A DNA stretch of 64,000 bases, from positions 24,284,299 to 24,348,298 of the forward strand of contig NC_134025.1 of the NCBI RefSeq assembly GCF_964204645.1. Direction: 5' to 3'. Of the stretch, positions 3,780-46,400 are shown one piece after another (within the stretch, counting starts at the first letter, position 1; each line of letters begins with the position of its first letter). Origin of the DNA: Tubulanus polymorphus. Lineage: Eukaryota; Animalia; Nemertea. The position numbers and the translations under genes are program-made. Under the pieces are notes generated by a model. That model did not search any database, had not been told where the DNA came from, and worked only from the letters and a program-made list of their open reading frames with translations.

Positions 3780-4146
3780 AGGGACTGGTTCCTTAGTCAG
3801 GGCTTAGACTTGTGACCGGTCTTAGACCATCTTAGCTCAATAGCCAATCTAACAACTTAAGACTAGTCTTAAAGATCAGGGCTACCAACCCTTTTAAAAG
3901 TGCTGTCATGATACAAATTGAATTTCTTTCAGTAACATTTCATTGAAATATGCAAGAATTATTCACATCAATCAGTAATCAACAGCAAGACCTTCAGTAA
4001 AATCTTTCATACTGCTGTATCGAAAAATCAAATCGGTATTTCTCGTTATAGAATAGTAACAAATACTGTAAATGAACAGTTGCCCACTCTCTGCCAATGA
4101 TTTAGGACCACTTTTGGTCTTAAGTCTCGACATGATCCGGTCCCAG
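3780..4146. mobile_element. Palindromic MITE interrupted by a nested hAT-like MITE (3878-4093)
   Basis: Outer ends cagggactggttc..gacttgtgacc / ggtcttaagtc..gatccggtcccag are inverted; inner insert cagggctaccaac..gttgcccactctctg flanked by a decayed 8-bp duplication ttaaagat / ccaatgat. Confidence 0.6.
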
Positions 4147-21746: not shown

Positions 21747-22426
21747 TCAGCTAGATGCTGGCTCATCTTCATACTGTTTCCTGAAGCAATCACCGACTGG
21801 GAAGAAATCCCACGATCGCTGTTGATAATACTCCCAGACGTACGTCTCCTGAAAATTAGACGATTCATCCGATTATTAAGGTCAAACGTTAAATGTGATT
21901 TCACTGTACTTTAAACCAAAAATGACTTAACGCCGAGTTGTGTGACAATGGAATAGGCTATGAGCATTAACAATGTCACATTCAGACCTTTGAGGGCACA
22001 ATCAGTTAATCTCACATAGAATTTGCATTCAAGCATCAACGATTTTCAGTAAAACCTGCCTCGGGTTGCAAAGAAATTGATTGTACTCACTTCAAGGGCA
22101 AATAGCTGAGGTTATAAAGTCAAAATCTAACGTTTTATTTCAACTTTATAGAGTGAATTGGTTTTGATGATTGTTTTTACTTACTTGTCCAGTATATTCT
22201 GTATCTGGTTTGTTAATCAGATGCATTAAGAAGAACCTGAATGGTTGGAAAAATGATCATTTATTTTTTCATTATTCTATGAAAGAGTATTTTTTGTAGT
22301 GTAACAGTAATGGTGTATCGCTTACATATAATTGGCGAAATTATGCTCCTGCTGGACATGTTTCTCAAAGCCATGCGGTACTTTATCAAAATACTCTTTT
22401 CCGATACCACATATGAAACATTTTGA
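21747..22426 (-). CDS. RyR: RyR exons: C-terminal domain with C2H2 zinc site and stop codon
   Basis: Exons 22326-22426 ([16 protein letters not shown]), 22185-22236 (KPDTEYTGQ), 21747-21848 ([33 protein letters not shown]). Confidence 0.96.
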
Positions 22427-25400
22427 CTAAAATGAAAACATAGAAATATGATATAGACATCTATCCACCTGTACAGCAGTATGCCATATGATGATGAAAT
22501 ATAGTGTAAATTTCTGCTTACCTCCATATCTTCCTTGACCTGCTCGAGTTGATCTCTCAATTCACCAAATGCATCGATGATCAAACCTACAATAGAAGAC
22601 GGAAAGGATCTTTAATGAAATAGTTTTCTTCATGTGCTGGTATAAATCAAATGTACAGCAAACAGGTCAATTCGATAGGACTTCGAGAATGGCAATCGGA
22701 ATAAAGGGACAATCTTTTTATTGCCAGAAACAGACAGAGATGTGCCTATCGTGGAAAGAACAACATACGCGATGACACATCCTTGACAAGCCCCACAACC
22801 TGCCAGCTTTTAAGATTTCAGTTCCTAGAAATATTACGCCGACATACCTTGAATTATAGCCAGTAAAATGACAATAACGAAGAAGAAGAACGTAATATCA
22901 AATAAGATACGATAGTTTTCGTACGGGTCTCCATCAGGTGAATCGATCTCGTCACCAATACCACCACCGGCTCGTACACCAGCATACAGGTGGAATACGA
23001 AACACTGAAGTTAAAAAATATCAGTGTCATGAAAATACAATTTTTAGTGCAATTCAAGCCTTTTCATAGCATAATCTTCGCTTGAAAATATCTAAATTAA
23101 ATTCATTCTAGTGGAGAAAGTACAATCGAGTAACAATCATTTGACATAATAGACAGCAAAAGGTGATCATCCTTGACTTTACCGTTAACATATCATGGCA
23201 CTTTTGGTCTACGCTGCCGTCCTCTTCTTTGACATAGAATTTCCGGAAGAAATTGAACGCAATCACCGTGTAAATATACACGACAACACTTGTTAGCATG
23301 ACAGTCAACACGAGCTGAAAAAAAAACAACAACAAAAACATAAGATACATTTCGAGTAGAGTAATCGGTGTTCGTCAAGTATTTTTCCCATCGTATGCCA
23401 GCTTGTTTACATAGAAAATGATGGATCGAAAAAGGATCTAATGGCTCCAGTAACTAGCTGATTCTTGAAAGTATCAAAAGGTCATGAAAAATGCACAAAC
23501 ACACTTCACATGTATATCAGCACGTTGTGATGAATGAATGTAAGCTCAATTTGAATCTTTAGCTTTTGATCGACTGCATATATTCACTTACCTGTTTTCC
23601 GTTATGTGTTACAGATTGCAAAATGGTTCGCAGCGTCTTGAAGCTGATCGCGACATCGAGAAGATGACCGGCGAAGAAGAACGGGTTGATATTGCCGAGC
23701 ATTGAGAACACAAAGAAGAACAGCAGGTACAAAAAAGACTGAAATGAATTGAATTCGTATATCATTACTTTTTTTATGCACAGAAGTAATTGTTTGTAAT
23801 TGGTTTCATACTTACGTTGTCTGTAAATATGACTCCCCATTTCCATATTTGGTACTGCCAGTCAACTTCAGAAAAGCTGTTGAAATATGAACATGATATG
23901 TCTATAAATGCATATGCATTCAATTGTAATTTTGTTGGCGATATGGTGAGACGTTAAAACTTGGGCTAGACTACAAGGTTTTTTAAAGTTTGAAACTTAA
24001 ACGAAACTAAGTGCCTCATGAAGATAAAACGTGATTGTAAAAATATGTATGGGCATGTACAAGCAAGTGAAATTCACATGACTGCTAACTAGTACTGTGG
24101 GCAGTAGAAAGAAAGAAATAGTTCATATAGTTGTATCAGTAATTCGTGAGATGCTGTTATCTGTAGATTTAGAGTATCTTAACCCTCCTTGAAATTCGTA
24201 CTTCCCCTCGGATTAAAAGAATTATTATTACAAAAAAAATATACAATTCATTCTGTCAGAAAAATCACAATTTATTAGTCGAACTTTCACTCTTTAGTTT
24301 TTAGTAATCAAACTTCGTTCCAGTTCTATTCTGCGTGTATACATATATAAACCTTAATTTTCTGAATCGGTCTTAGTGTCACCTCATGAAAGAAAATGTG
24401 TGCTAATGATAAATGTGTAGTACTAGCATTCAACGAAAAAAAAACGAAAATCTATTACTCTCTATGTAATATATCTTACCACCGAAATATGCGTATCCTG
24501 GAATGACATTAGCATTTGAAAAAATAACAATTGTCAGGTCAAACGGAAATGAAGTTATACTGATGAATAGGTATACAATATGCTTTTTGATGGGAAAGAA
24601 TCAGTTAAAAGTCGATAACTTACAAAGTAGGAAGTATGCCCTTGGGTTCTTGGACTTCCTCTTCTTTCACTTTGAAACTCAGACTGTCACCTTTTTCCAT
24701 TCCGAGTAGCGTGCTGATCTCATCGTAGTCATACTGTTCACTGTACTTGTTGCGTACCTAGTTAGGAAATCCATAAATAAATACCATGATACAAACAGCT
24801 CATTCCTGCTGAACATACGAATGAAGAAAATATATTTTTCAGTAACTAACCTTCTTTTTGACAAACTTATCCCAGTACATATGAGGAAATGATTTCGTTG
24901 ATAGCACCAATTTGTCCCAAAGGCTTTTGAGGTCATCTTCACCAGCTTGTTGGTTGATCCACATTCCTTCAAATTCTAACATACGAGAAATTTCTTTCTC
25001 GCGCTTGAAGACAACAAGTGGGACTTTCAGACAGTAGTAAGCGACCAGCATGGAGAATGAGACAATCGAATGAAAGACTGCTAATATTGTAATACACGTC
25101 TGGAAATATGGCACATTTTCACTCATTTTGATGAATTCGTCTGCCTTTTCATCACCGTCTCCACCTTCAGCAGATGTTGCATTTGCAGCAGCGTCTGCTA
25201 CTGCCTCAGCTGCCGCCTCAGCAGCTGCTTCAGCAGCTCCGCTTTCATCTGATTCTCCGGCAGTAACCTGAATAAGATTAATGAAATCAAAAATGACTCG
25301 ATATATACACATGCACTGTTAAGTTTCAATAAAAACCTAAATACATACTCTGTAGAAAAGTAGAATAAAGTTTATGGCAAACCCTAAAATCAGTGCAGCT

Positions 25401-28400
25401 ATTTTCAAGTTGTAGAAGTTGCGAGCAAACAGGCTCTGAAAAATGAAAACACATCATTCATCATTACATGTATATGAAGAATACATTTCTTTCAACCATC
25501 CAAATTTTGATAAGCTTTTTGTCTTACCAGGATGTATTTTCCAGTGTCCAGACCCTTCACTTCATATGGCAGAGCGTCTTCATCGTTTTTTAAAGTTTCT
25601 CCAACACCACTACTACAAATGTAAAGCAATCGACACATATCAATAAAATATACTATGAATTTACTGTGAATGCAATATTACACAACCTTGACAGTATGTT
25701 TTTAATAATTGCAAATGCATGTACATGGACATGTAATCTCAAAGCCTATAGGTACATACTTTGCTTCATTTTGGCAAGATCTCTCAACACACCTTTGAAT
25801 ATATCATATTGTAAAGGAAATATTATTTTCTATACACGCTTTTACGAAACATCTGCTAAAATTGTTTTCTAGTTTTATCTATCTAAACTATGAAAAGAAT
25901 TTCACAACTAGACAAATGATTACATTCCACATACTGGCACTTTCATAATTCAAACTTTCTTCACTATACTGAACTAAATACAATTCTTTGATAGAATACT
26001 GACATTGATTAATCTACATTTTAGTAGTTAGAGATTTAAAGCAAAATGTATGGGTAAAACATATACAAAACAACCGAGAGAATCATATACTGAGGAGTGG
26101 GGAAACTGAAATAAGGAAAATAAATAAGATACATGTCACAAAACTGAATGGATGTTGAGAGAGAATCACATATATACAACATCATGATATAGAGCCGTAT
26201 AATATAAACTAAGGCGCCACAATAACATACCAGCCGTACAGTTTGGCTAGACGTGAGAATCGGCGTTGCCTTTTCCATTGTTTTATGCTCTTGCTTTTCT
26301 TTTTATGGTCAATAGTCGGGTATTTGTTTTGTTGAACTGGCGCAGGCACCAGAGTTGATTGGTTATTGGAGTTGGTTGTTGGGGCAACGAATGGGACTAG
26401 AGCCATTGCCCTGAGAACAAGCACATAAGCAAAATGTGTCAGTACCCGGTGAGAGGGGATTTACAAAATATGTTTGGTTAGAAAAGAGTTATTCAGAGAG
26501 ACGGTTATTGTTAATACAGTCAACCCTTGATAATCCGCCACCCTTGGTTTTCCGCCCAAATCTTTAATCCCCGATTACAGAAATTTAGTTAACTGTCAAT
26601 AAAAATGAAGTTTATTTAATCAACCAGCCAATAAGAGATCGGTCCAAAGAGTGGAGGAATACTTAAGAGTTGACTATGCAATTGCATATTCATCCATGAT
26701 CAGTAAGTCAAATATATGAATATATACATGAAGTTTGACACTTACTCAGGAGTTAATGGTGTGGACTGCGTTGAATCAGGAGCTCCTTGTGGTGTCTCTG
26801 ATTCATCTGGTCTTGGTGACAGTAAGGATGGTTCACCTTCAGCTGTTTGTATTTCGCTGTCTCCCTCACTATAATCTGTACTAGACTGAGGGCTGACGCT
26901 CAATGGGGGTGCCTTCACTCTATAGCTAAAAGTGTACAAAAAAAAATTGCTGACTGAATAGATTTATTGTTTCTTGTAGGTTTGAATGTTAAAACTAGAA
27001 GACTAGAAAAGAAAAAGATGAGTAAGTAGATAAAGTACTGGTATCATTTATTTTCCATGAAATTTATCTATTTTTTCAAGAATTAACTGAATCTTAATAA
27101 ATTAAAAGTTTCGGCGTAAATATTTTTCTTGTTACCTGACTCCATCGGCGGTTTCATCTTTTACGATATCCATTCCGAAAGCATGCATCGGTCCATTTTG
27201 CTGGTCATCGAGGGCTAATTCGGCTGTGTCTATACCCTCCAGTGCTAGGTGTTGTTGAGCGGAGAGTATAGCAGCCGGTGGTATAGACATTCGGCGCACG
27301 TCGTGCATCGGACGATCCGTTCTATCACCCATCATCATCGCGATGATAAACCGTGCAAAAGTCCTACAATAGTGAAGTCAATAAGCTATATACAACAAGT
27401 CAGCATTTCCAAAAAGATATTAACATATCCAGTTATCATCACATCAGTGAATATGCCGTAGGATAAGAAAAATATGTATTTTAAGTATTTTACAAAAGGA
27501 TAATTCCATACTCTGTGCCCCTAAATAGTTGATATCCACCCAGAATTGCAAACCCTCCAAGTTGCTTACCATACAACATTGAACACAAATGTCAGCAATA
27601 GTATGCCAATCTTTGAGCATAGTTTCAGAATGGCCAGCATCAGTTGTCCAAATGTCATCTGTCGCATCGAATGGTACGAGTCTTTGATGTTCGTCCAAGT
27701 GAGGAATGACAATAGGAAAAAGATTCCATCTTTGATTCCACCAAACACAGCTTTTACTGTATCCAGCTTACTTCTACAAGTGAAAGCATTCAGAAAAATC
27801 GAAATCAGAAATCAGGACATCATTATCAATCCTCAGACATAGGTAGTTTCCCGATTACATTTAATCATGTATATGTAACAAAAACTTACTGCTCCTCAGG
27901 AAGTCCAGCTGCACTCCTCATTGCTGCAATTTGTGACATGCGGGCTGCTTGTTCCTCAGCACTTATACTAGCAGCATGCTGCATCTGTAAGTTAATTTAC
28001 ATTTAGATTAAATCCAAAACTTACTGATGATGTGTTTACTCTTATAGGAAATCTTTTTTTTTCAATGAGAATGCACTTGTATTGTATCAGACCAAATAGT
28101 TACCTCAAATATAGTATCCTCACAAAAGTTGACAAATGATTCCAATTTCTCTTTGTCTCCCCCTTCATTCACCACACTGTGCAAGAATGAACGCTTTGAA
28201 TCCTGAAAGAGTAAGTAAAACGATAATAGGGATGTTATTCATTATCTGTAGCGAAGTAAGTAGAGAAGAGCTACGATCCATCATGCTGTGTAAAAGATAA
28301 GTATGGTAAAAAAACTTAAGGAATGATGACGAACCTTGATTTGAGGAGCTTCCCACTGGTCAATGTGAGACTGCTTGATTTCAAAGTACACTCGTTCTAT

Positions 28401-31400
28401 TCGTCCTGAACTGCCAAGAATTTCAATTCGTCCGAGGTAGGGTTCGAAGTAATCCAGTACACATTTAGCTTTTTCGAGGAATCTCTCCAACCTGAGAAAA
28501 ATAAGGTGTACTAAATGATCAAAAACTTGTCTCAATCAGTCAATAATAATTCGGATCCATCATCACATGGATAAAAGGCGTATGCGTAGAATTAGGAACA
28601 ATACCTTGGATCATTCGGCATGTGTTCCGATAGATTTGACAACAGTACAGCGACGTTGAAACCAATGTCTTTGGCAGGGTTATGGAAGCGATCGGTAAAT
28701 TCGCAAAAGTCGACTTTTCCATCTTGGTTTGCATCGACACACATCATAATGTAGTCAATTTCTTCCCTAAATTCAAAGAAACAACGGATTCATTTGAGAA
28801 ATGATTAACTATTTTCATTTGAAAAAATTGATGGATGCATTACTGGATACTGTGTATTGACAAAATTCTAGGTAGAATTAAATCTATTTCATTCTCAATC
28901 ATTTTCAATACCTACCTCATAACATTTAATATGACAAGTATTTGTATAATAAATTGCACAACAGATTAATTAATGTTAAATATGATTTTAGCTCATTCTC
29001 TCGTGCATTTTAAGGACTGAACGTCTGTCAGATGCAAATTTACATCAGGGACTAGTTTCAAACCAGTATGAACATTATGCGGAACTTGATACTATGAATA
29101 AATAATTCAAAACTGGTTGAAAGCACTCGTTTAACCTTGCCAGGTGCAGACAGACATACAGTCAGTCATTTTACAGACATTGATGTGTAGAAATGTATAA
29201 GAACAGCAACGAACGATCAAACCCTGTTGAACCAATAGTGAAAAATGTTTTTGAACTTATACATTCCTATACATGTGCGGTGGCAATTCATTACAGCGTG
29301 TATAGATTACTGTTAGATTGTTCAGATTTTAGTTCCACGGAACTGTACTTAAAAATCTTGAATATTTCCATGAAATATTTACTGAATTATGTACCGACAG
29401 TCTGTGCATTAGAAATAAAAAACAATACGCCAGGATATGACTTAAACAAATTGAAATGTACTCCCATGTGTCTTGAACGAGGCACTAGCTATGCGCAGCA
29501 TTAAACTAATGGATTGAAACCACATTTTTTTGTTGTAAATCAAAAGAACTGATAAGCATTTCCAACAAACACTAGTTGATTGTTAATTCTAATCATGAAA
29601 TGTATTTAATTCAATCACACTAGAGCTAGCGGATCTTCAATTCAAGACTCAAAGAGGAGCAGCGCATGCAGGAAATAAGATGACATCATAGATGATTTCA
29701 TTTGAAATGTTTGTCTGCAGCTCTTTGACTATCAGAAAGTTGCACTTCAATCGTGAAATTTGAGGTGGTGTACCGAAAGTACCAAGTGGGGGGGGGGGGG
29801 ATATACTGTTTGAAGAGAGGACATGCGAGCAAACAAACAGTGTGCCCTCACTTACTCTGTGTAGACCTTCATAGTATCCATTGCATTACGGAACTCTTTA
29901 TGAGAAATAACACCATCACCGTTCTTGTCAAATTCCTACAGAATCCAGCGTACGAGTTTACACATACAGACAAACATAATTATGATGATTACATGAACAT
30001 GTACATGTGTGTGAACAAAGCATATACAAGTGCACATCTGTGTAATATATCCTAGCCACCGAATGTTATTATTCAATAGCCATACCATTGCTGAGAGCAG
30101 TATTTTTTTATCTTTCATAATAAATCTCTTGTATTTTTACAGTAGGACATTCGTTTGATAGGATAACGATGTACACTTCAATAAAAATCCAAATTCATGA
30201 TATGTGATTGAAAAAACTGCTCTCTCACTCGTCTAAACCACCAAAAGCAACTGAAAACAAGTCAGGATGAATGCGCTGGATCGATCATCTAGAGTTGTTA
30301 AGACGCAGTAAAGCCCGACACCAAGCTTTATACTAAGCCATGTACGAACCGAGTGTACATCTTCTGCGCATCCATCGCTCGGCGGAATTCTTTAGCCGAT
30401 ATAAAACCATCGTGATTAGTATCAAATTCCTGTAAATTGAACAACAAACAGCATGCATGTCTTATAACAGTTATGGCATTTTTAAAGGCCTATGAGACAC
30501 CACTCTCTGAAGTGGACCCAAATGTATCGTTGGGCTGCATGGGCATCGAATTGTGTACAAGAATAATATTCTAAACATTCTTCATCCATTAAATCCTCAT
30601 GTTTAGGCGAAAGTACGTATATAGCTATATATATTTCGTCGACGCGTTAAGCCATACTCTCCACTTCGTACAAATGCCAAGGTTTTATCTGGAAAGACTT
30701 CAAAACTTTCAAAGCCTTTTGGGAGGGCTAAAAAGCATATCCTGGATAACATGTAATGTATTTCATTAATTTTGTTTCCTACTTACCAGGAATGCTTCAG
30801 ATGATGTAAGATCTTTCATCTTCAGGAATATATCGAAGAATTTCAAGATCATCTAGTAAAATAAACAACACAGAATTTCATCAACAAAGATAGATGTAAT
30901 TAAAATGTGAAGCTGGATAGGATGATGACTTTTACTGGGTAGGACTGAGAGTTTCATGTCACTGATCTGGGTGGGTTTAAATGTTTTATTCGTAGAAATA
31001 TAGAAATATTCGATAAAATATTCGAAAATATAAATGGCATGCTGGTTGTTATATCATTGATCGATTGATAGGTTCGTTTTTCTAAACAGTTTACACCCGA
31101 GATTAATTTTCTAAAATTGACATCTGTACACATACATCCATGTTAGCTGATGACTCGACTAATGTATCAACCATCTGTTTACCGATTGGGCCATTCATTT
31201 CATTTCCTGGAATAAAAAGTGATTAATGTCAGTAACCAGGCCAGTGAGCGATATTTTTCCAGCGAAAACCAATATGGCACATGGCCTTTCCAGACTATTT
31301 ATTGAATGGACATAGAACCAACCGCTTACCTTCTAACATAGAGAGCAACATGATCATCATTTCTTTTTGTAACTTCATGAATTCTCTTAGCAATTCCAAT

Positions 31401-34400
31401 TGTTCGGGATCCTACAAACGAGTAATAACAAAATAATCTGACAGTTTTGGACATCTAAAAATTATTCTCTATACGGCGACGAATGATATTGGCTTTACCT
31501 TAGATAACTTATCTTGCATGTGGGCAAAGATGTAGAGGAATCCACCAACAGCATCCCACAGCCTACTGTGAGCAAGAGCCAATTGATTTTGGGAGCATGG
31601 ACCCTAAAATAAGACAACTCTCAATAAAAAACAGTTCATCGATCTTTCATCTGTAATTTTACTGTATTCATGGACTATAGATGGTTCAGGAAAATAAATT
31701 TTCAGAATTCCAGATATACTATTAAAATTCTTTGAAACAGCCATATACACATTTGTATACATCGAAATTAATACATCTACCGAAGCTAACTGGGACACAC
31801 CTGGATATATTCAGTCAATGTGTTGAACACCTGCGCAGCGACCATGATAGCGCGACAGAAATTCTCTTTTCCTGACTCATCAATTGTGTCTTTGCCAGAA
31901 TAATGCCAATAGAAATCCATGATTGATTCCTGTAGATTGGAAGAAAAAAGTACACAAACTTCTGACATTACAAAACCAATAAGCATCAATCTGTCATAGA
32001 GTCGATTGGAAATACTGAAGATATGACTCATAATAACTAGGATCTATTGCAAGTATATGTGCAGCAGACTCCAGACTTGGATATTACTCAAGTTGGACAC
32101 ATTTATATGGTCCGAAAAGATCCGACTTGAGCAAAGTATACTGTATAATGAAGTTTATACATATTTATATATATATATATATATATACATGTACTTCAAG
32201 ATATTGTACATGTACAGCATATTATGTTTCAGCAATTACACAACCCTGATCGAATGGAATTCTGATTGAATACCTGAAGTCTGAGAAGATAGTCAACAGT
32301 ACAAATGACCAGATTCACTGTCGTGTTATTGCCAGCTTGAGTGCGCAAGTAATTCTGCCATTCTGAAAATACAGACAAATGATTGTACAATGTCGTCCAA
32401 CGATCAGACATTCTTTATTTTACATTTCCTTCAGTTTGATCCAATAGAATATGCCTACCTAAGTTATGACCTTCACAGAGGAGTTGTAACAAACGGAACA
32501 GTTTACACGTGAATTCAGCATCGTGTAGATTCTTGACGCCCGCTGTTCCTTCCGAACCCATTCCTAGACCTTCAGCCTTGTTACAGCGCTCGAATGCATC
32601 CAAATCCAGCACACTGATAAGAAATAATTCGGCAAAGGTATACAGTATGTGAACTTAAGTCAACTGTGATGGTCACAATTTAGAACAGAACTCACCTGCA
32701 TTGCTGCATGAGACCAGCTACGGATGTAAAGAAGCCTACTTCTTTCTTTTCCTGCATGTGATTCAACATTTGCTGGAATTTTGATAAAATGAAAGCAATA
32801 CATTAACTCATGATAAACCTACCATAGTTAGCCTTTAGCTACTGGTAGTTATAACGAAGTGGCAGCAGAGTAAGTGACCACTAGTCGTACAGGAAGGGAC
32901 TTTTTCAGGAACATGTATCAAGGTGTTAAGAGGGATGCAGGATGTGCTAATGCTAAGTTATGTACTTTTAGAGGTTTATACGATTATTTTTCCATTCATT
33001 ACCTTTTGCACATCAATATTGCCACCACGCAACAATGATATACCAAGATCGATAGTCGACTCTACCATTGGACTCGTTTGACCTGAATTCCAAAAGAATC
33101 ATCTTGAAAAATGTTCTTAAATCCGTATTGAATATCATTTATCGTAATGTACAACAGGATTGCACATATTAAATGCCATTTGTATACTGATTATGTATCT
33201 AGGTCATGTTGATTCAGAAATGTTATTCAGTGCTGACAGCTGTAGGCTTGAATAACAGTTACACAATGAATGTACAGTATCAGAACAGCAGCACTGTGTT
33301 GATCAAATAACTCAATTTTTAAAGGTCTTCAATAGGAATATTTTCAATTCCCACTTTTAACACAATTTGATTCTTAATGTTAAAAACCTATAGCATTCAA
33401 GACGATCATATTTATTCACTTTCGAATACTACGCAGTGGGTATAAGAAATCAAGTAGAATGATAAATCAAAATGTAATGTACCTTTACATGCAGAGATAT
33501 ACAGTAAAACCATTTCAGATGCGCCACGGTCAGCAAGACGAGACTGTTCAAATAGTAACTTTAATTTCTCCATCTCTTGTTCCTAAAATATCAATGTAAC
33601 AAAAAATGATGAAACGATAAAAAAAATTAAGTCTTTGTTATTAATATCAGGAAATGTTTTGCTACATATAAGCCCAAAATAGAATGTAATATTCCACAAG
33701 ATTTCCTGCAAAAGAACATAGATGAATATCTGAAGTTATGAAATCATGTCAATCAAGCCTTGCAATGTAAAGTGTAGAAGATACTCAATAACATTTTTCT
33801 TTTAAAATTGGGATATAGGGTGATTTCGAGCTTTATTCGGATCTACGTAGATTATATAAATGAATGTTGATTTCAGTACTTTTTGCTGAAAAACAAAGGC
33901 CAAGCAAGTCATGGAATCAAAGGAGCCCTTAACTCAAGCTTAATACATTTACAAACACAGTATGCTTATTCCAGGGTATTGATTTACAATTCACGCATCT
34001 ATACCCGGTACGAACATAGAATTCAATGTTTTCCAAGATATCATACATGTACATGTACACATACACAGACAGTGAAGTCTCTAGAGTAATGTATGACACA
34101 GCAAACAACATAGAAATACCTTCATAGCGTGTAGTTTAATCTGCATGCAGAAAATACAAAATAAGATGAAGTAATTTCAATTGATGTATCTTCATATCAA
34201 TAACTTGTAGATTTTAAGCGACTAAAAGCGTGAAGTTTAGTTTTGAGGGTATACTGAGCTCTGTTCCTCATACTGTGTGAGTGTGACCTGCCATTAAAAT
34301 CAATGGATATATATCATCTACACCGTACCTGTATTGAAGCTCCCGTGTCCTCCTCGTCTTCCTCTTCTTCTTCCTCATCTTCTCCACTACAGCTTTTGCT

Positions 34401-37400
34401 CATGATGTCTGCGTAAGACATATAAAGGAAGTCTTCGGAGTTAGATTGACTGTGTTCGGTCGTTGCTGCCCGGCAGAACGCCGTTATTAGCTGTTTCAAA
34501 GGATCAGGTTTCTCATCAGTATCTGCTTCTTTCTTCTCTTCGCTTTCATCTTCACTTTTCTACAAATGATATTCAGCCGCACAAAGATACGCATAAATAT
34601 CATATATCAGAGGAGTGGTAAAGCATATGAGCGAAACAATGTAGGAGTACTTACAGTGAGATCTTCGATCATATCCAAGACACCCGATTCCTCTTTACCA
34701 AGCCACTGATCAACGTAAGATTTCAAGAACAAGTTGATTACCCTATGCCTGAAATAAAATCCACCATCCATAAGTGTTGGCTTATCTATCCGGAAATTCA
34801 TGCTGACTATAAGAAGAATGGCATCAGCACTACCAACGGAGGTCGTGCTCGACATTATTTATACATACTTTGGTGTAGCATGAAGTGGCACCATTCTGAA
34901 ACAAGCCATTACGGCTCTCTTCTTCTGAGATGATATCAGCTTTTTCCAAGCCCCTTTCAAAGATGGCGGAGGATGATCGACCTATTCGAATAAATAGATG
35001 TTTGTAAATGACGAACAGTGGCACATAATACACCATTATATCTGCTAGATATGTACTTACCAAGTAGAGACCATGGAGCACTTTAGCCATAGCAATAACC
35101 CTCTCAATCATCTTATCTTTATCAAGTACAACAGCACCGTCCAATTTCGTTTGCCCAATCTTTTTGTAAAGGAGCTTCTGCCATCGCATTTTGGCATCGG
35201 CATCGATCTAAATCAGAAGCAAAATTTCGTCAACTATAGCAAATTCATTTTCAGAGATATCAAGCGCCCTTGAAATGAATTTAGTGACCGAAATAATCAG
35301 CAAGTTAGGCCGACAAACCTTTTCTTCCATCTGAATGCACTGTTTCAAGTATTCTTCGATCTCTGACTCGGGTTCCTTCTGAAACATTGAGAGATCAGAA
35401 CCCCGTATATACCCAATGGTTAGTAATAAAACATGCATAGACGTATACATAAACTGAAGAGGGAACACAGGCAATCACGGAATACAGTACAATTCTTACA
35501 TTTGATCAAAATTTGATGAAATCTCTAATGTTTATGTTCAAAGAGCGATCTAATCGAAAAAGCAAATGAGTTTGTCCATATAAGTATACTAAGGTATAAA
35601 CCAGGGAAATATTTCTTAGATTCTCAATTACCGGTACCGTACGCGGAGATGATTGCCTATGACTGCGAAATAACGGGAATCATTCAGGTTGAAAAATAAC
35701 ATATATCGGAAAAATCTTTTCACAGATATCGCGTTCGTAGGGGCCTAAAGTGGCAATGAGGCTCCGATATTGTAATAAAAATCTTCAGTCATAACGACGG
35801 AAAATTTTTCTGACAAACAAAGAGGGATATGTTAATGATGTAGGATACGTGTAAACATGGGATATATACATGGAGCCTCATGTCCACCTTGAACATCCAA
35901 AGATATTGGCCACATTAATATTATATTTTCATCCTCAAAACGTTATGAACACTTTTTAAAAAGCTATGACAGGTTTGATTTAAATATATTTTGTTCATGT
36001 ACCGGTAGTCTAAAGTTGAGGGCTTGAGAAATGCAGAATTTCTACAGCTAAGATTTCTAAGCTAATTCTCATCTATAACTTTAGTGACTTATGATAGTTA
36101 TTCAAACCATTATCTATACATGTATATCTTTTATGTATATAAAGTATTATTCCAGCTAAGAGAACTAGCAATCAGATACTAAGTACATAACTTATTGATT
36201 ATGATAATGATAAGAACTATCAGGAGAAGTAATATTTGGGAGAACAACTACAGGACATGTGAGACGTTAACTTTGAATATTTCAAACAAACGTTTTTAAT
36301 GATTGATAGAGACAGCAAGAGTTAAAAACAAGATTTATGACAAACACAGTAGAACGTCAGTAACTGTAGCGGTGAGAGGCTGACACATGTACATTTATAT
36401 ATCTATTTAGTATCAATGTACATGTACATAAAAACCATACATTTATTATATTTCCTTTCTATCAACCACTAGGAACTCTTTATCTTCTTCAAAGATTTTC
36501 ATCCTCATAAAAACATCAGATAGTTTGTTTCGATTTTTGATGGGGAGTTGAAAAAATGTGAAGATTTTTGAAAAGACCCAAAACCACGTGCACTTTACGC
36601 ATTTGGACAGACACAGGAGGAGTGGTACCAGTAGGTATTTACTTTGTTTCGACAAGTTTCTTTAATATCTCTGTTACAAGTAACAATATCAACTAAACTT
36701 GTGGAAGAAGAAAATTTGCTGGTATAAACACATCTAACAATCTAGATTATTTAATTGGCTCACCCCATCATTGGCTAGCTAATGCAAAAATTGAATGTAA
36801 ACAATGAATATGTCATTTTAATAGATGCTTTTGTTAATACTCTATGCATAGTTTATATATCTTATTAAAATCATACTTCTACTACGTTTTACAATATTTG
36901 TTCATGCGTGTCACTATTACTCATAATGGGAAATGTAGGAAGAAGCTCTTCGTCCGAGTCATTTCATGGAAGAAAGATGAGATATCGGAACATGGAAACA
37001 GAAAGATTTATGACAGAACTTTCGTTTTCAGGCCCATGGAGGAACCCTAGTATGGTACGTCACAATAAAACTGGTCTCGATGAGTCCCAGCAATGAAACT
37101 TCTGAAGTCAAATTAAAGATGAATACCATCGATGACAAAAAATGATGCAAAAATGTTTTAAAATAATGAAATATGTATTACACATTCAAATGTAATTAAG
37201 AGCAAAAATGAAAACTGTTTAAAAACTTTAAATCTAAAAGAATGTACTGCATTAGGCCTAAGCAAAAATGAGTTAATTTATTAGTAGTGTTCTATTTCAT
37301 ACGTTGAATTGCAAGCGGATAATCGTAATTTGTATTATCGTGTACATCACATCTTGTGAGTAATGAATATGAAACTAAGTTTTAGTAAATCTCTGACGTA

Positions 37401-40400
37401 CACTAAGCAAGCACTATCTCAGTTAATTTCTTTATCTTGCAGCCATTCACATACCATTTTCAACATCATGAAAAATAATCACAGCCTGTTGTGAGCAGGA
37501 ATTCTTCTTTTGCTAATGGTTAGAATTCATGCATGCAGAAAGCGACTAACTTTTTTCACTCATGAAATTTTTAGTGGCGCGAATATGAAAATGGTACGGC
37601 TAAAAAGTAGCAAATTGAAACTAAACATAGGCACATCACTCACGCTATGGTATTCTTCTAGACTGCTGCAGTCTACAAAGGTATTCTGAAGAAGGAACCA
37701 AGACCTACGTATTTTGCAATGCCAGACAGAAATAAGCAGACACAAATTCTAAAAATACTTTACACCAAACACTTTTTTAAAATCTGTTTACACATTTTTT
37801 TTGGTACTTATATTATTTGGAGTAGAATGGGTGAAACATTATTATGAAAATGAGAAAGCTGAACTTAAAAATAAGAAAAGATCTTTGCAAAATAATCTGT
37901 GGAGCAGTGGGGCTGCTATTTAGAAGGTAATTTCTGGCAGCCATTCAACATAAATGATGTAAAAATCTAAAAAACACCAAAACTGAAATATCAACTAAGC
38001 ACACTTGCAAACAGTTCTAATCAAGGAGAATATTAGCAATTCAAAATGGTAATGACCAACTAAACTTAATGAAGATAGTCGTGGGAAGGCGAATTGTGCA
38101 ATATTTCAACTTGTGAAAGTATTTTGCTTAAATGGTTTGAATTCCTTTTGAGTTAGAAAAGAATATAAATGATGGAAAGTTGGATGAATTGAGGTGTTCA
38201 AAACTTTGACACAATACGTGTAGAAACATGTAGGGGCCAAGTAGTTGTCAGTAGACATGTGTAAGTACAGAAGTAAGTGAACTTTCATTTAAGCACTACA
38301 ATGGACAGTGGATACTACAATCATGGAAACAACTTAGGACAGACTCTTAAATTCAAAAATAAGCAAGTAGCTGGATGCTGTGAAAGGATTCTACATTGAA
38401 AGTGACTGGACAAGTTGTCTAATCATGCATTGATCAATGTACAGGCATTCTAAGTAGGTTATAGCTTCATAATTGAATGATTTGCTGTGAAAGCACACAG
38501 ATCTGTCATAGATTCTTTTAGTAAATATCTGGCCTACAACTAGCTGCTTGAAGTTTCTAAATTGTACAATAACGCTGTATTATATGACAATTACTTTTGT
38601 GTTACTAGTAAAACTAAATTTTCAAAATCTCTTAAATTTATGCTGCATCAGTCAAGCTTAGTTTTACTTAGTTAGCCAGGTTAATTTCAGTGTACCAGTG
38701 GTAATTCATATCATATTTGATTAACGAATTCATTAGCAATTACTATCATTCAGTTTTCGTTATCAGTTAGGTTAACTTTTATTTTGAGAATTGTCATCAG
38801 AAGTATGGTATTTCTTTGCATGTTGCATAGTTTTCTTCATAAATAAGAGATAATTTGCCGGAGGTCAAACCGTACCTGGATGAGGCGTTCTTTGGCCTGT
38901 TGAACTAATTCCTGTTCGCGGCCACCAAACAAATTCAAACCGATCGGCAACAAACGTTTCAGACACGCAACATTCAATGATGTATAGTTAGCAAGCTTTT
39001 TCTTTTCGCGTTTTCGTCCCTTTGTCGGAATGGCGTCATTTTTCTGACTCTCACCGCTGACCAGTCCTTTCGCATGAGTCGGCATGATGAGCGCCATGTT
39101 GTCGATTTCATGAAGAATGACGAAGTTCATTTCTTCCCGTTTGAAAATCTAAAAACAACAATTAAGGTACGGTAGAATTGAGGTAGTATACCCACAAAAC
39201 AGGACCCAGTTCCACAGTCAGATTCTAACTCAAGAGTCGCATCAGGGGCGGATGTAGGAAAATTGGAAGGCAGGAAAGAAGAAAAGGCATTTCTACGATA
39301 AAGCAGCTATGTCAAAGCCCACACTTGGGTCCATATACCTAGGGTTAGATATTTTTGAAGATATAAATCCATCCTAAAGGATGAATTTCCGAGAGAATGA
39401 GTCTCAAATCTATAGGTTTTAATGATATCTGTTTTGACGAAAAGGGCAACTTCAATGGGAAGGCAGGATTCTGGATCCCAAACCACCCCCTAAATCAGTG
39501 AGAAACTAGCTTAAAAAATGCAACAGCTTGAAATATACCATTTTGATATTCTTTATATATATCTTGAATTCTAATATATAAACCAAATATTCCGTGTAAC
39601 ATGCACTTATATGCACATGATTTGTTACTTACTGCTGATCTAGACCAGAAGTAGAAGATATCAGCGACACACGAGTACAACTGCTCGGCTTCAATCGATG
39701 GATGTTTCAACCAGTGAGAACGATGCAGGTCAACGTATTTGATCAGTAATGGATGGAACGCATACATATCTCTCACCAAAACTTGGAAATTCTGAAATTG
39801 CAGAAAATATTCCAAGCAATTAGGTAAAATCGTAAATTGAACCATACCAACATGGTTAACTAAGCGACATTTACCAATTGAACTTCTTCCTCCAAATCAC
39901 CGACATCTTGGTTACCACGTTTTAACGAATTATATTCCTCTTCTTCACGTTCCACAAATTTAGCATTCTCGAGCAGTTTTTGGGCAGCTGGTAAGATGTG
40001 ATCAGGAAGCATGTCTGGTGTTGAGCTACCAATAATTGGCTGTGTACGACCTACAAGTGATTATTTCATACATAGAGTTATGTGTAAACAAACACTAATT
40101 TATTGGCAGAACAATAATTCAAATCAACTTACTCGCAATTCTTGTCATCCATGGTGCATTTGGTGTTCCGATATTGTTCCTAACAAGTTTCAATACATTA
40201 CCAAGAACTGCATTCATCAGGTTAGCAGTGACTGTGGTCACGTGGTTTCTGAAAATTAACAATTATCTTGTTGAAAAAGACAAGCACTAGATTCTCTTGT
40301 TCTTGATTTTAATATGCACTGGTTTTGATAACTAGTTTCCCTATGAATATCACTACTTACCCTTCTTCACCCAGTACTACATTATCGGGACCTTGAGCCC

Positions 40401-43400
40401 ACCACAGTGGAAGATAACTACACAACATGGGCAGTGTCACTTCAATAACATGCGGAGCTTCGTTGTATTTTCCACCGGATTCAGCTAATTCTTCGATTTC
40501 AGCTACAATCCTAGACAACGTCGGGACATTCTCAGCCAATTCAGCAAATACCTCTACAAAATGAGATAAAAGAGTCATATTTCTAACATATATGATCCAC
40601 AGATATGACTTTTCAGTTGGATCATTAAGGCGCATTAATTCAGTTAAATATAATTTTTGTATACCTCTTGCTTCCAATGAGAAGTCCTCAATTTTTCCTT
40701 CGATACCATACACGATGGAGTTTCTGTTAAATTGGTTTAGTTCTGGCTCGAGGAATGCTACTGGGAATGTACTGGCAAATGATGCGACGCATTCACCAAG
40801 GATCGGTCGATGTCTACAAAAAAGTTTGTATGAATTTTCATGAGTTTTCTTAGATCATATTGGTACACGTGTATTCACTGCATAACGAACCATTAATCAC
40901 ACATTCACAGTACCGGTATAGGTAAAGTGTTTCTTTCACATTTGCCATTAGTTCCAAGAAGTAAGGAGAATTCAAGAACAAAATGGTAAATTTCATCCGT
41001 AGATAAATTTAACAGATGAGACATACAAGAATTTTTGTCAGTAAGCTATTCTTTTCCATGCTGAATAATGAATCATTGTTAATAAATGAATTTCTATGAA
41101 TAATAAATTTTTATGATTATCATCATTCTCTGATAGACAGAGTGCAGCATCATTCATATCAAATAATTGGGCTATAAGGGTCTTGTGGAAGGGACAAATC
41201 TCAATATTCAACACCATGCCATGCTCATTCACCTGTCTAATTCGGCATGAATTGCATCCCTGAAAATCGACACGTTGAAGTCATGATTAAATAATGAAAT
41301 CATGAAAATTGACACATTGTAGTCACGAATAAACATTGAAATCATAAATAATCAATCATGAATAAGAATTGAAAAAGTCTTAAACAAAGCATTGAATTTT
41401 AGGGAAAATACATATGAATTGTGCGATTGATACAGTACCTGGTAACATAAACTGCTCCACTAGTTCCTAGTGTGTAAAGTGCATTGAGGATTCTGTAGCA
41501 GCACAGCTGGATGTCTTCAACTATCATCAAATTCAGATAAAATATAAGTGATTTATGGATTGAGTAAAGAGATTGAAGTTATTTGTACTTTGTAATTTGT
41601 AATTTTTTTCCTACCAAGAAAACTAAGCGGGTATATACAGATTTCGATTTATGAAATTTCCAGTTACCTAATAGGTCGATTCCATAGTCATTTCTACCCA
41701 GGTGATCAAACAGTGAACACAGGACAGGAAGAAGCACCATATGTACATAATTCATACTAGTAGCACCTCGTGCGATTGTGCCTTTCACATGACTGAATCG
41801 TCCCATCTTCAAATTATGAACAGTTTGAGTCAGGTCATCAGCGGCATTTGTAAAGAATGGAAGCAGGGACGCGCGAACAATCTCGGGACTGTTCTTTACT
41901 ACAGCTCTGTAAAACAGCAAATTACATCAGGTTCATTCATATTCAAATATTCATCCAGAAATACATCAATACGTCACAATACATCGTATTGTGCTAGTCC
42001 TACCTGGCATCAATGGCTTGTACCAATACTTGAAGACAGCGAACAGCTATGTTCACATCATGGCCAAAAGCAGTGACTTTCTGTCTGAGGAGCGCTGCTA
42101 GCTTACAGAACAAACTGCTTGTCATTTCTTTCTCTTTGACAGACGCTTGTCCACTCGAAGATGCGGGAACGTTTGGCATTGTAATGAAGTAGGCACGATG
42201 GGCTAAGAAATACTTTTCAACCAGAGGTAGTACAACCTACAATGAAGATTTAGAGTAAATTAGGTATATCTTGGTATAGCAAACAAAATATACAAAATAT
42301 GAAGAAAGTATAAGCAACGATTTTTTTTCATACTTTTCCAAAGAATTTCACGTCCTCTGTAGCAGTACAGTAACTATTGCGTCTACTGAATCTTGCGCTT
42401 GGTTTAGACATGTTTAGGTTGTACGAAGCCCGATCGAGATATTCTAGAAGTTTTTCGAGTAAGCTGTATGCAAATCTTTTCTCGGTTGAGGACACTCCGA
42501 CACCACTATCTGCCTCAGAGTCTTTGCTCTCACGGTAGGTCGCATCTCGCTTGCGTTCATCAATGATTGTAGTGCTAAAATGATGAATCAATTTTGTTCT
42601 TTGTCACATTGCAAATCATTTATAAAACAAGACAGATTGAAATCTAACTTCAATATTAACAGATTCACAAAATTTCCTGGTTTAAAGTTTCAATGCAGTA
42701 CCTTTGCATTCTATATCCTTGCATTTGTAAGAATTTCAACAACTCCTGACATAAATCTCGATTCTTTTTCTTCTCCATGTCCGTCACAATATCATAGGGT
42801 ACAAGCAAAGGATGCACACCCCCACCTAGAATACAAATGAACATTGCTGTATAGGTGTCTTTATATTTTGAACATTTCAAAAATAATGAAGGAATACATG
42901 ATTTTTTAATCTAAAAGGACCCTTCAATCATGATTTGATTGTCCCGAAATACAGCTGGACATGCAATGTGAGCAAGCATCCAATCCCTTTACCATAGATG
43001 CATGATATAGATGTAGTAATATTGGCTGAGACGGAACGAATTACAAATTCAACAAAGCAACATTAGCATCTATTTTTACGAGCATAAATTTTGTAATAGC
43101 AATGAACATTCACAGAAAGCCATTAAACCCATGATAATGAAAGTAGCAATAATCGTTCAGCAATAAATTTTTTGGTGAAGGTTCTTCTTGAGAATATGAT
43201 ATGAGATGACCAGCTCCATTATCTCAACTCCAATGAAGCCATAACTAGCAAAATATAAACACTTACTTTCAGGGGTAACTAGAATGGGATACACACAAAA
43301 TGTATAGAAAAAACATTAAAATCACATTCACAAAATATAGACAATTACTTGTACAGACACACGTAATTAACCAAAGTATTACAATCACTTGATGAAGGAA

Positions 43401-46400
43401 TAAGCTTGGATAGTTTTTGTTAACACTGTTATTATCAATTCAGCTTACCAATAGAATCAAGTTCAGCTCTTTTCTTTTTGGCCCAAACTTCATGAGCATT
43501 TTCAGCCAGTTTTTCAGACATTACCTACAGGAAAAAGAGTTAAATTTACATGTGGCAAAACAATGGGATTTCATTGGAACAGGGATATTTTAAATTGATA
43601 CTGAAAGATATATCAAAAGAAAATTCATCAAAGCCTACCAGCATTTCTCTACTCAGAGTAGTATTTCGCAAATCAACTGGTTGTGGACTGTATCCATGAG
43701 GTGAGTCAACCTAGAATAAATGGAAACTTTATCAAGTATGTGTAAAAGCAGAAAAAGTACATCTTTCCATGAGGAATAAAAAAGAATTGTGTATAAACAT
43801 GAACAGGGGTGAGATTGGTGTATGGTGGAATTTTCACATCTTTTATCATATCGTAATTTTAACATTTTCACATTTTTTCACTGTTTAACAGCTCAGACTT
43901 TTCACATCTTTCATACTAAAATTTCAAAATATCAATATTCTTTACATTGAATATGGTGAGAAACAACAGGAAACTGTAGCCTTGGCTTTTACAATGGAAA
44001 AACAGTGCCTAGTTGCTGCGATGACTAAAAGCAAAGGCATTGCAGTCTATAAGATTGACAGACTCAAGTTCAAAACAATAGGCCTAAATGAAGAAGAGCA
44101 CAAAATATACATGCATATGTGCTGCTTAAGGTAAAAGAGAAAGAATATTCTGCAGAAAAAAGTACCGGTACCTCAGAATTTTCAGCAAACAAAATTTTGT
44201 AAAATGTCATACATTTTTGTAAATTTCCCATTTTTTTGTTATTTTTCCCAGAAATTTCAACTTTCAAAATTTTTCCCAATTTTTTCAGTATATTTTTCGC
44301 ATCAATCTTACCCCTGCGTAAGGACAGTTACGATGAAAAATTTTTGAAATGAAGTAGATCATGCAAGTAATGTTGTTCAAATAACTAAACACGTCATAGC
44401 CTGCAATCCTGCCCTAGATATTATGCACAAATGGAATTTTTCATCTGGCCACACATTAAAGCAATCATCTCAACGAAGCTTATTTTCTATATACCTGCAG
44501 GTTTGAATTTGATTTACTTCGTCCCTGAAATATAAAATCATCAAAGTTTCACCTGACATGCACATAATAATCAATCACCTCCTACCTTTATATCTGTGAT
44601 AAGTGGAGGCGCATGCCAGGTACTTTACACATTTGATGATGTGCTGTCTGGTCTAGAGGTAAAGAATCTAAGACAGCTACATACGTGAAGTGCGATATCG
44701 AAATAGAATAAAATAATAACGGGGTATGTTAAATAAATACTAGACCCCATACAACTACCAGTACATAAAAAGATTTCATAAAAAATTTTTCAAAAAGGTT
44801 GAATAGTTACAATAAACGCTAGAGCCAAATAATATGTATATTAGCATTTTTTCAAAACTGTATAAGGCTAAAAAAGATACCTTGTTTCTAATGGCCGGTC
44901 AGTAAAAAATGAGGTCAAACCAATTGCTAAAAATTCAACAAAAAAAATTTGGCCATCTGGGTCCATTCCGTAAAAAATTATATACAGCTGGATGGGTGTA
45001 TAAATTTATTCATTAATGCTGTTTCTTTTTATGTCAGACATTTCTACGATGTCAGTGCTGTATCTGATTTCGTACACTAGTGTGACCGCTGGTTCTAACA
45101 ACACCTACTTGGTGGCACCACTAGCCAGTGCTTTTATATATGTATTCAATCGATAAATGAAGGAAACGTGGTAAAAAACTAGGGGTCCAGGTAAACCATT
45201 CCCACCCCTTGGTGAACAAATACAGAAACCAATGATCTTGAAACCCTCCGAGACATAGTGTGTCAGGAGCTACAAATTTGCATTTGACTTAGGTTAGAAA
45301 TTATGCATATGTACCAATTAATATGGAAACTATTTTTTCCAATTCCAAAGAGTCAGGTTGGTGGGTCAATTTTGGACTTCAGAGAAACAAGGTATCTTTT
45401 TAAGCCTAAAAGCAGCATTTCCTGCAATAGGCTACTAATAAGCCGCAATATGGGATCTGTATACCGTATTAAGAATAAGAAAAGAGTATAAACAGAATAC
45501 CCATAAAGATCATTTTAGCATCAAATACCACAATTAACCCTGTCACGCATGCCTAGTCAACTTATCAAATACATTCAGAGTGCACAAGATCATGTTTATT
45601 TTCAAAATCCTTCATCGAAATCAAAGGAAATAAAAATCTACTATGGAATAAGGTGTCTCACTAATATCGATTCCTAGAATTTTCCCATGTAATAAGTGAA
45701 TAGAACATCTACATGAGATTCAAATTGACTATAAAGCTAACATAATAAAAAGAATTTAAGGGGGTACTACTAATTAACAATGTTAAGTGAGATGCCTTGA
45801 AACTACCATGCTACTCTATAGACGATGTGCGCAATGTAATGATGTTTATACAAACATTAAATTTAGACTGGCTTTGGATAAGGTTCACGGTGGTCTGATG
45901 GAAATAAAAAGTGCAAGACTAGCCTTACATTTACCAGGGAAATGCGCGACGCTCGTCGTTTCAGCGCACGTGAGGAAGCTCGTGATTCGTCGAGCTCAAG
46001 TGTCCAGCCCCACGCTATCATTGCTTTAACTGTTTCTCTAATTGGCTCGACAGTTTTCTCTTGTTCCTGAAATTAATCATTCCAAAATATCAATTCGAAT
46101 GCCAAGAATTGCATCTTATGTTACTGGAAAGTGACTCGTAAGTACATTGTAGTTCAAGTTGTTTTCCAAAATACTCACCCCTTTAATTATATGAACAAAT
46201 GGTTTGAGATTTGGATGCTCCTTCAAATCATCATCATAGCGCTGTCCATACACCCAAGAGTCATCAATCTATCAAAAAAATATCAAGAAATCTTGAAATA
46301 TTTTAATAAACAAGTGCATGTACTTATACATGTTTTTTTAAGTTACGTAGGTTCATAACAAAGTGATCGTAGAAGTCACAAGTTCGGTCTTATACCTTTT

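What the first reader, a model, noticed from the sequence alone, without database searches (positions are those of the whole stretch)
29856..30429. Mutually exclusive duplicated exons swap EF-hand 1 of the ryanodine receptor
Seen: two 80-nt exons of identical phase (0>2) encode [26 protein letters not shown] and [26 protein letters not shown]. Both keep D-x-N-x-D-G-x-I-S-x-x-E loops and intact splice sites, with divergence at synonymous and non-ligand positions. Including both or neither shifts the frame, so exactly one must be used. Established: the RyR EF-hand pair is implicated in Ca2+-dependent inactivation and contacts the S2-S3 loop. Inference: one gene generates two Ca2+-regulatory channel types, possibly muscle versus neuron. 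I do not recall this switch being described, but I cannot search the literature.
Basis: partly seen in the sequence, partly recalled or inferred. Interest (0 to 1): 0.8.

Follow-up and report, generated by a model that had tools for sequence, protein, structure and literature searches.

The report
Swappable calcium loop in ryanodine receptor
The ryanodine-receptor calcium-channel gene of this animal, likely a ribbon worm, holds two copies of the exon for its first calcium-binding loop, its assembled transcripts use one copy or the other, and the same choice recurs in snails, clams, octopus and another ribbon worm, so one gene likely makes two channel forms that shut off differently at high calcium or magnesium.

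Summary
Confirmed, and now shown at the RNA level. Two 80-nt exons (A 30429-30350, B 29935-29856) each encode loop and exit helix of RyR EF-hand 1. In spliced run X2 each is joined singly to the same flanking exons; no both-in or both-out joint was listed; run X5 shows B only. Public gene models give two or more EF1 forms in 13 of 14 named mollusc and nemertean species with at least 4 sequences, and an annelid locus has four tandem copies. All Ca2+ ligands are the same in both exons; the differences are at non-ligand sites, including RyR1-equivalent Q4100 (M in B) and an Arg at 4105 (A). The facing S2-S3 loop is acidic and lacks RyR1's R4736, so the mammalian mechanism does not carry over directly. 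A position-conserved GCATG hints at Rbfox control. Function and tissue use are untested. Eight literature searches found RyR exon pairs elsewhere in the protein but not at EF1. The scan noted the same pair before in an octopus-like genome (e1-8806995). New variant of a known kind.

The parts
21750..64000 (-). Ryanodine receptor gene, from about residue 720 of a full-length relative to the stop codon; the 5' part lies beyond the window
   Evidence: tblastn of full-length relatives maps colinearly down the minus strand; GT-AG introns are skipped in runs X2 and X5
30787..30852 (-). Shared upstream exon, 66 nt, phase 0 to 0; holds most of the entering helix of EF-hand 1 (RyR1 4057-4078, with the E4075 and Q4078 equivalents)
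   Evidence: Spliced in X2 and X5; numbering
30452..30457 (-). TGCATG 28 nt before exon A; candidate Rbfox site in the repressing position (inferred)
   Evidence: a GCATG also stands 13 nt before the first copy in L002
30350..30429 (-). Alternative exon A, 80 nt: EF1 loop and exit helix (RyR1 4079-4104) plus two bases of an Arg codon (4105); Ala at 4090, Gln at 4100
   Evidence: joined to both flanks in an X2 contig of depth 41.6
30344..30349 (-). Non-consensus donor GTTCGT of exon A
   Evidence: The only one of 19 donors examined with C at +4; upstream copies in L002 and L006 also have non-consensus donors
29856..29935 (-). Alternative exon B, 80 nt: same stretch; His at 4090, Met at 4100, Glu at 4105; consensus donor, pyrimidine-poor acceptor
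   Evidence: joined to both flanks in X2 (depth 55.1) and X5 (depth 8.45)
29822..29826 (-). GCATG 30 nt after exon B; candidate Rbfox site in the enhancing position (inferred)
   Evidence: Same position in L002 (+30) and L006 (+29); 0 of 14 single-copy annelid loci and 0 of 6 arthropod-like loci have it there
28604..28766 (-). Shared downstream exon, 163 nt, EF-hand 2
   Evidence: Spliced in X2 and X5; EF-hand match, 24.1 bits, just under the Pfam cut-off of 25.4
24624..24757 (-). Exon with the S2-S3 loop segment that faces the EF-hands in RyR1; here acidic, with Asp at the G4733 place and Glu at the R4736 place
   Evidence: Translation; same segment as Lineus, which aligns without gaps to RyR1 4716-4745; exon ends

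Best explanation
The gene splices in exactly one of two old, tandem-duplicated exons for the loop and exit helix of RyR EF-hand 1, and this likely yields channels that differ in how strongly Ca2+ or Mg2+ bound at the EF-hands closes the pore, likely by changing the surface that meets the neighbouring subunit's S2-S3 loop rather than the ion ligands. Shown: both exons are used one at a time; double inclusion or double skipping gives an early stop; the choice recurs across molluscs and a nemertean and as tandem copies in annelids; the ligands are invariant. Inferred: form A (less acidic exon, Arg at 4105, Gln at 4100) would couple more tightly to the acidic S2-S3 loop than form B (Glu at 4105, Met at 4100). 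Inferred: a weak A donor, a weak B acceptor and Rbfox-type GCATG sites (before A, after B) would favour B in Rbfox-rich cells, with nonsense-mediated decay removing errors.
For: Four single-exon joints in X2, B joints in X5. Frame test. 13 of 14 named mollusc or nemertean species with 4 or more sequences show at least two EF1 forms; one form only in Schistosoma, Antedon, Tachypleus, Adineta, Lytechinus and four vertebrate RyR3 sets. In Lineus, Octopus and Biomphalaria isoform sets EF1 is the only substitution found, and in Mercenaria the only internal one. Loop positions 1, 3, 5, 6, 9, 12 and K4101 are invariant in 32 of 32 exon copies; R4105 in 15 of 16 A-type and 0 of 16 B-type copies; net charge -1 to +2 in A, -1 to -2 in B. 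Q4100, K4101 and D4079 form contacts with S2-S3 in RyR1 structures (PMC12119028 section 7; PMC10832476). Exchanging EF1 of RyR1 for that of RyR2 weakens Ca2+ inhibition while the EF2 exchange does not, and the authors place the difference in signal transmission, not ion affinity (PMC12119028 passages). GCATG position and Rbfox rule; Rbfox controls mutually exclusive exons in C. elegans.
Against: No functional or tissue data. R4736, the key S2-S3 residue for RyR1 inactivation, is replaced in all 16 mollusc, annelid, nemertean and brachiopod sequences listed, and G4733 is Asp or Glu, a change that weakens inhibition in RyR1, so the interface may work differently or not at all. Position 4105 is not among the interface residues named in the papers read. 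The Arg could partly reflect selection for a G at the last exon base next to a weak donor (two L002 copies with weak donors lack it). Met at 4100 is in only 3 of 16 B-type copies (plus L002), so it is not a general A/B difference. No ion has been resolved at the EF loops in RyR1 structures. The GCATG match rests on one nemertean-like and two related annelid loci and was noticed after the fact. Contigs drop rare variants, so low-level double inclusion is not excluded.
Confidence: 0.55

Rival explanations
1. The swap changes the ion affinity or Ca2+/Mg2+ selectivity of EF1 itself, through non-ligand loop positions 2, 4, 7 and 10 and helix packing with EF2 (closest to the first reader's reading).
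For: Both loops are canonical EF-hands above the Pfam cut-off, more so than mammalian RyR EF1 loops; position 10 is Ala in 13 of 16 A copies and His in 10 of 16 B copies, position 7 is Tyr/Phe in 12 of 16 A and Trp in 11 of 16 B.
Against: All ligand positions are invariant, unlike alpha-actinin, where one exon loses its ligands. For mammalian RyRs the isoform difference was not explained by EF ion binding.
Confidence: 0.2
2. The swap tunes something other than cytosolic inactivation: sensitivity to luminal Ca2+ or binding of a partner protein on the exposed EF-hand surface.
For: Deleting the RyR2 EF-hands reduces luminal Ca2+ sensitivity and spares cytosolic activation (PMC5583710 passages). 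CaV2 exons 37a/37b act through kinase sites, calmodulin transduction and localisation, not ion binding. The S2-S3 arginine is missing here.
Against: No partner or luminal effect is known for this clade from anything read; the EF1 exchange experiment in RyR1 affects cytosolic inhibition.
Confidence: 0.15
3. The two forms are nearly equivalent; both exons persist because each is the one spliced in some cells and must keep a working EF-hand.
For: Ligands identical; without positions 4105 and 4090 the A/B match to the window holds in only 10 of 17 pairs (6 reversed, 1 tie). Single copies suffice in 10 annelid loci that span both flanks and one form only was seen in 11 Littorina sequences.
Against: Class-specific residues are kept across phyla; further, strongly diverged copies were added in L002 and Ruditapes; chelicerates swap the adjacent exon of the same domain.
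Confidence: 0.1
4. On origin: the pairs arose by several independent duplications, not one in an early lophotrochozoan.
For: The exon tree has low support; one A clade is only not rejected (p-AU 0.378) and a window-only duplication is not formally rejected (p-AU 0.056). Lineus copies lack the A4090 and R4105 marks.
Against: Same order (Arg-ending copy before the His/Glu-type copy) in the window, the Plakobranchus model, L002 and L006; shared weak donors and GCATG position between window and annelids; 14 of 17 pairs match A to A and B to B without using position 4105.
Confidence: 0.25

Closest known systems
Insect RyR mutually exclusive exons a/b in SPRY2, and a predicted pair at a calmodulin-binding site (PMC3989282, PMC3787966, PMC4204029, PMC4309888; passages read)
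   Same: A single invertebrate RyR gene diversified by homologous exons used one at a time; stage and tissue regulation shown for the SPRY2 pair.
   Different: Other domains. No local duplicate of a SPRY2 exon was found in this window; none of these passages describes an EF-hand pair.
Vertebrate RYR3 tandem duplicated exon substitution (named in PMC9741552, passage)
   Same: Homologous alternative exons in an RyR gene.
   Different: In fetched RyR3 isoforms the swap lies about 400-430 residues before EF1, and EF1 is identical within each species set.
CaV2 channel exons 37a/37b, EFa/EFb (PMC7235277, passages)
   Same: Mutually exclusive, frame-shifting (97-nt) exons that swap the loop and F helix of an EF-hand in a Ca2+ channel and change its Ca2+ feedback; best model for how this works.
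   Different: Unrelated channel family; the CaV2 EF-hand is described as a transducer that does not bind Ca2+, while these loops are canonical.
Alpha-actinin ACTN1/ACTN4 EF-hand exons (PMC9741552, passage)
   Same: Tandem duplicated exons that swap an EF-hand.
   Different: There one form loses Ca2+ binding; here both keep every ligand.
C. elegans unc-68 tissue-specific isoforms (PMC7644089, passages)
   Same: One RyR gene, tissue-specific isoforms with separate functions.
   Different: Alternative first exons and divergent region 2; no EF-hand mention in that text.
Mammalian RyR1 versus RyR2 EF1 difference (PMC12119028, PMC10832476, PMC11096358)
   Same: The exon covers the stretch (4079-4105) whose exchange alters Ca2+ inhibition.
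   Different: Separate genes there, splicing here; the S2-S3 partner R4736 is absent here.

Membership tests
Ryanodine receptor | Colinear homology over SPRY, RyR-repeat, RIH, EF-hand and pore regions | tested here: met
   tblastn maps; 63-83% identity to named RyRs over reference-anchored, identity-filtered columns
Mutually exclusive tandem duplicated exons | Adjacent homologous exons of equal length and phase with intact splice sites | tested here: met
Mutually exclusive tandem duplicated exons | Each exon found spliced alone to the same flanks | tested here: met
   Four joints in X2, two in X5
Mutually exclusive tandem duplicated exons | No double inclusion or double skipping | tested here: inconclusive
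   None listed in 4 runs laid, but contigs drop rare variants; both products have early stops
Canonical EF-hand | 12-residue loop with ligands at 1, 3, 5, 7, 9, 12 and Gly at 6 | tested here: met
   Both exons above Pfam PF00036 cut-off; invariant in 32 of 32 copies
Canonical EF-hand | Measured Ca2+ binding | not testable with these tools
   No assay
RyR1-type EF-hand to S2-S3 inactivation contact | E4075/D4079 facing R4736 | tested here: not met
   R4736 place is Glu in the window and not Arg in the 16 lophotrochozoan sequences listed
RyR1-type EF-hand to S2-S3 inactivation contact | K4101 facing an acid at 4730 | tested here: met
   Lys in both exons, Glu at the 4730 place; sequence only
Rbfox-regulated exon pair | GCATG before the repressed and after the enhanced exon, conserved | tested here: inconclusive
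   Position shared by window, L002, L006; 1 of 16 constitutive window introns has GCATG within 60 nt of an end; binding untested
Docking-site/selector (Dscam-type) exclusion | Conserved competing base pairing | tested here: inconclusive
   No intron word shared with the annelid loci beyond chance (best p about 0.055); A-B intron folding z -1.4, 0.2, -0.4
Steric exclusion | Intervening intron too short to splice | tested here: not met
   414 nt here, 279-507 nt in L002 and L006

The most novel reading that the evidence does not exclude
An early lophotrochozoan duplicated the RyR EF1 exon and put it under Rbfox control, so molluscs, ribbon worms and many annelids build cell-type-specific channels with different Ca2+/Mg2+ shut-off from one gene, with up to four settings in some annelids. 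The coupling would run through a charge-reversed interface (basic EF-hand face on an acidic S2-S3 loop), a splice-encoded parallel of the RyR1/RyR2 split and a natural experiment on whether EF1 is the inhibitory divalent site.
Probability: 0.3. Interest if true: 0.75.

Novelty: new variant of a known kind. Interest (0 to 1): 0.52.

Why it matters
Whether the EF-hands are the low-affinity inhibitory Ca2+/Mg2+ site of RyR is still argued, because no ion has been seen there. These exon pairs are long-tested natural swaps of exactly that element in an otherwise identical channel, with canonical loops that should be easier to assay. They also show how animals with one RyR gene may obtain several Ca2+-release behaviours, and they correct gene models that fuse or drop the copies.

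Tried and rejected
No whole genome is held for the window, so I did not test for a second RyR gene or an Rbfox gene. No listed run is on record as RNA; X2 and X5 are read as RNA because they skip GT-AG introns. X6 laid nothing; X3 and X4 gave intron-rich pieces and no joints; neither is evidence. Alleles or assembly duplication: rejected, one DNA contig spans both copies. Pseudo-exon: rejected. Shared intron words with annelids: none beyond chance in 21 intron pairs; a 9-mer that caught my eye had p about 0.2. Conserved RNA structure: not found. A first, partly circular 15 of 15 A/B match was redone without the labelling residues: 14 of 17, then 10 of 17. First tree run timed out; the short-alignment tree did not place the window; the longer one did. 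A 27-residue query found no solved structure. No Rfam match in the window; no Pfam match for 4 long open frames tested in 1-21700. No structure or complex prediction was run: both forms would give the same known fold.

Full report
Observation. The minus strand of the window carries most of a ryanodine receptor gene, 64000 to about 21750. Between a 66-nt exon (30852-30787) and the 163-nt EF-hand 2 exon (28766-28604) lie two 80-nt exons, A (30429-30350) and B (29935-29856), each after an AG, before a GT, phase 0 to 2. Both pass the Pfam EF-hand_1 cut-off. They are the only two hits of an EF1 profile in the window and the only local exon duplicate found in the part of the gene present; the other overlaps are RyR's own internal repeats. 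A or B alone keeps the frame; both or neither gives an early stop. They share 53 of 80 bases (19 of 27, 21 of 27 and 13 of 26 by codon position) and 18 of 26 residues.

Organism. On 2652 reference-anchored columns, EF1 left out, the window groups with the nemertean Lineus longissimus (FastTree support 1.0), outside the annelid and mollusc clades. No phoronid was sampled, so 'ribbon worm' is likely, not certain.

RNA. Six runs were listed, none on record as RNA. Runs X2 and X5, from two studies, skip GT-AG introns along the gene, while X1 covers it flatly as DNA with one contig over 22000-32152 (15 of 35 joints were shown). Laid on 28551-31250, X2 has two 132-nt contigs, one joining upstream exon, A and downstream exon (depth 41.6), the other doing the same with B (depth 55.1). 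X5 has one 2593-nt contig with B. Five joints were listed in all; none joins A to B or skips both. X3 and X4 gave no joints. These are contigs: they show presence, not absence, level or tissue.

Relatives. Among public gene models (up to 15 members listed per cluster), 13 of 14 named mollusc or nemertean species with at least four sequences reaching this region have two or more EF1 forms: Lineus, Mercenaria, Ruditapes (three), Ostrea, Magallana gigas, Mytilus galloprovincialis, Pomacea, Biomphalaria glabrata, two Haliotis, Gigantopelta, Bradybaena and Octopus bimaculoides; Littorina (11 sequences) shows one. These are predicted models, not checked transcripts. The Plakobranchus model holds both copies in tandem, A-type first. 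One form only was seen in Schistosoma (11), Antedon (9), Tachypleus (11), Adineta (8), Lytechinus (3) and RyR3 of four vertebrates (27, 6, 5, 5). Of 65 metagenome loci, L002, which falls in the annelid clade, has four tandem copies with splice sites, one of 83 nt; L006 has two before its contig ends; 10 other annelid loci that span both flanks have one copy; six arthropod-like loci have one exon with the same two boundaries. So the exon is older than the duplication.

Classes and origin. In 16 pairs (15 relatives and the window), loop positions 1, 3, 5, 6, 9, 12 and the Lys at RyR1 4101 are invariant. A-type copies have Ala at 4090 (13 of 16) and Arg at 4105 (15 of 16); B-type have His at 4090 (10 of 16) and never Arg at 4105 (numbering, matching the loop numbering). 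I labelled the classes by that Arg, so I retested without it: 14 of 17 pairs still match A to A and B to B, but only 10 of 17 when 4090 is also dropped; species are not independent. One A clade is not rejected (p-AU 0.378) and a window-only duplication is close to rejection (0.056). A single early origin is the simpler reading but is not proven.

Exon choice. A has the donor GTTCGT, the only one of 19 window donors examined with C at +4; B has GTAAGT but a pyrimidine-poor acceptor. The annelid loci repeat this: non-consensus donors on upstream copies, GTAAGC on the last. GCATG stands at +30 after B in the window, +30 in L002 and +29 in L006, and at that place in 0 of 14 single-copy annelid loci (two have it at +39 and +58) and 0 of 6 arthropod-like loci; TGCATG stands 28 nt before A. 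The motif occurs 1.2 times per kb in the gene and near an end of 1 of 16 constitutive introns. Rbfox usually enhances exons when bound downstream and represses when bound upstream (PMC11874969 passages, which also notes that many GCAUGs are not bound) and controls such pairs in C. elegans, where decay of frameshifted products backs up 14 of 29 clusters (PMC4165533 passages). This predicts B in Rbfox-rich cells; it is inference from three loci, two of them related. Steric exclusion does not apply (414-nt intron) and no conserved pairing was found.

Protein mechanism. The exon covers RyR1 4079-4105. In RyR1, E4075, Q4078 and D4079 contact R4736 and K4101 contacts D4730 of the next subunit, and K4101 mutants lose Ca2+/Mg2+ inhibition (PMC10832476, abstract, introduction and first results; PMC11096358 passages). 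Q4100 also contacts D4730 and I4731 (PMC12119028 section 7). Exchanging EF1, but not EF2, between RyR1 and RyR2 changes Ca2+ inhibition (PMC12119028 passages citing earlier work). Here D4079 and K4101 equivalents are the same in A and B, Q4100 is Met in B (3 of 16 B-type copies), and A is two charges less acidic. The facing loop differs from RyR1: Glu at 4730, Asp at 4733, Glu at 4736. The R4736 contact is therefore absent, and G4733E is a change that weakens inhibition in RyR1. I read this as a K4101-centred contact with an acidic loop that the more basic A form would grip better; that step is inference with no structure behind it. Rivals are a change in ion affinity, an effect on luminal sensing (PMC5583710 passages) or partner binding, and near-equivalence.

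Known and new. RyR exon pairs are in print for insect SPRY2, a predicted calmodulin-site pair and RYR3; the RyR3 swap maps 400-430 residues before EF1. EF-hand swaps are known in CaV2 channels and alpha-actinin. Searches listed no paper on an RyR EF1 pair; I read passages of those named here, listings only for the rest, and no supplements (that of PMC9741552 may give the RYR3 exon). The library lacks most subscription journals, and the isoforms already stand unremarked in public annotations.

Verdict. A real, expressed, widely kept mutually exclusive exon pair at a regulatory site of RyR, apparently undescribed; function untested. New variant of a known kind; interest 0.52.

Noticed in passing
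L002:8048-9454: Four tandem EF1 exon copies in an annelid locus; the first two are strongly diverged (one is 83 nt) yet keep loop ligands and splice sites. No RNA evidence for them.
   Followed up: partly
P0384 (Ruditapes models): A third EF1 form, one residue longer than the other two.
   Followed up: no
P0151 and P0553 (Tachypleus models); window equivalent 30787-30852: Horseshoe crab isoforms swap the exon just before EF1 (entering helix) instead, and another near residue 2746-2782: the same domain diversified separately in chelicerates.
   Followed up: partly
window 24624-24757: The S2-S3 segment is acidic and lacks the R4736 equivalent in all spiralian, arthropod and echinoderm sequences that could be anchored; only the vertebrate RyR3 rows have it.
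   Followed up: partly
P0022 and P0007: Likely annotation artefacts: the Plakobranchus model fuses both EF1 exons; the Paralvinella model has seven extra residues after EF1, which may hide further copies.
   Followed up: no
L002:9096-9374 and L006:102-392: The intron between the last two copies has two hairpins with the same arms in both annelid loci; overall folding is not above shuffles and the window does not share them.
   Followed up: partly
window 32079-32200: A short repeat with very high depth in the DNA run (bin mean 1026 against 39) next to a TA run, inside an intron.
   Followed up: no
window 26793: T to C difference in one X5 contig; probably an allele.
   Followed up: no
window 28551-31250, runs X3 and X4: Intron-rich short contigs with shared adaptor-like loose ends and no joints; possibly nuclear RNA.
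   Followed up: no
window 1-21700: No gene identified: four long open frames had no Pfam match and the window has no Rfam match.
   Followed up: partly
L041-L050: Rotifer-like loci lack the intron before the EF1 exon but keep the one after it, so this exon could not be duplicated alone there.
   Followed up: no
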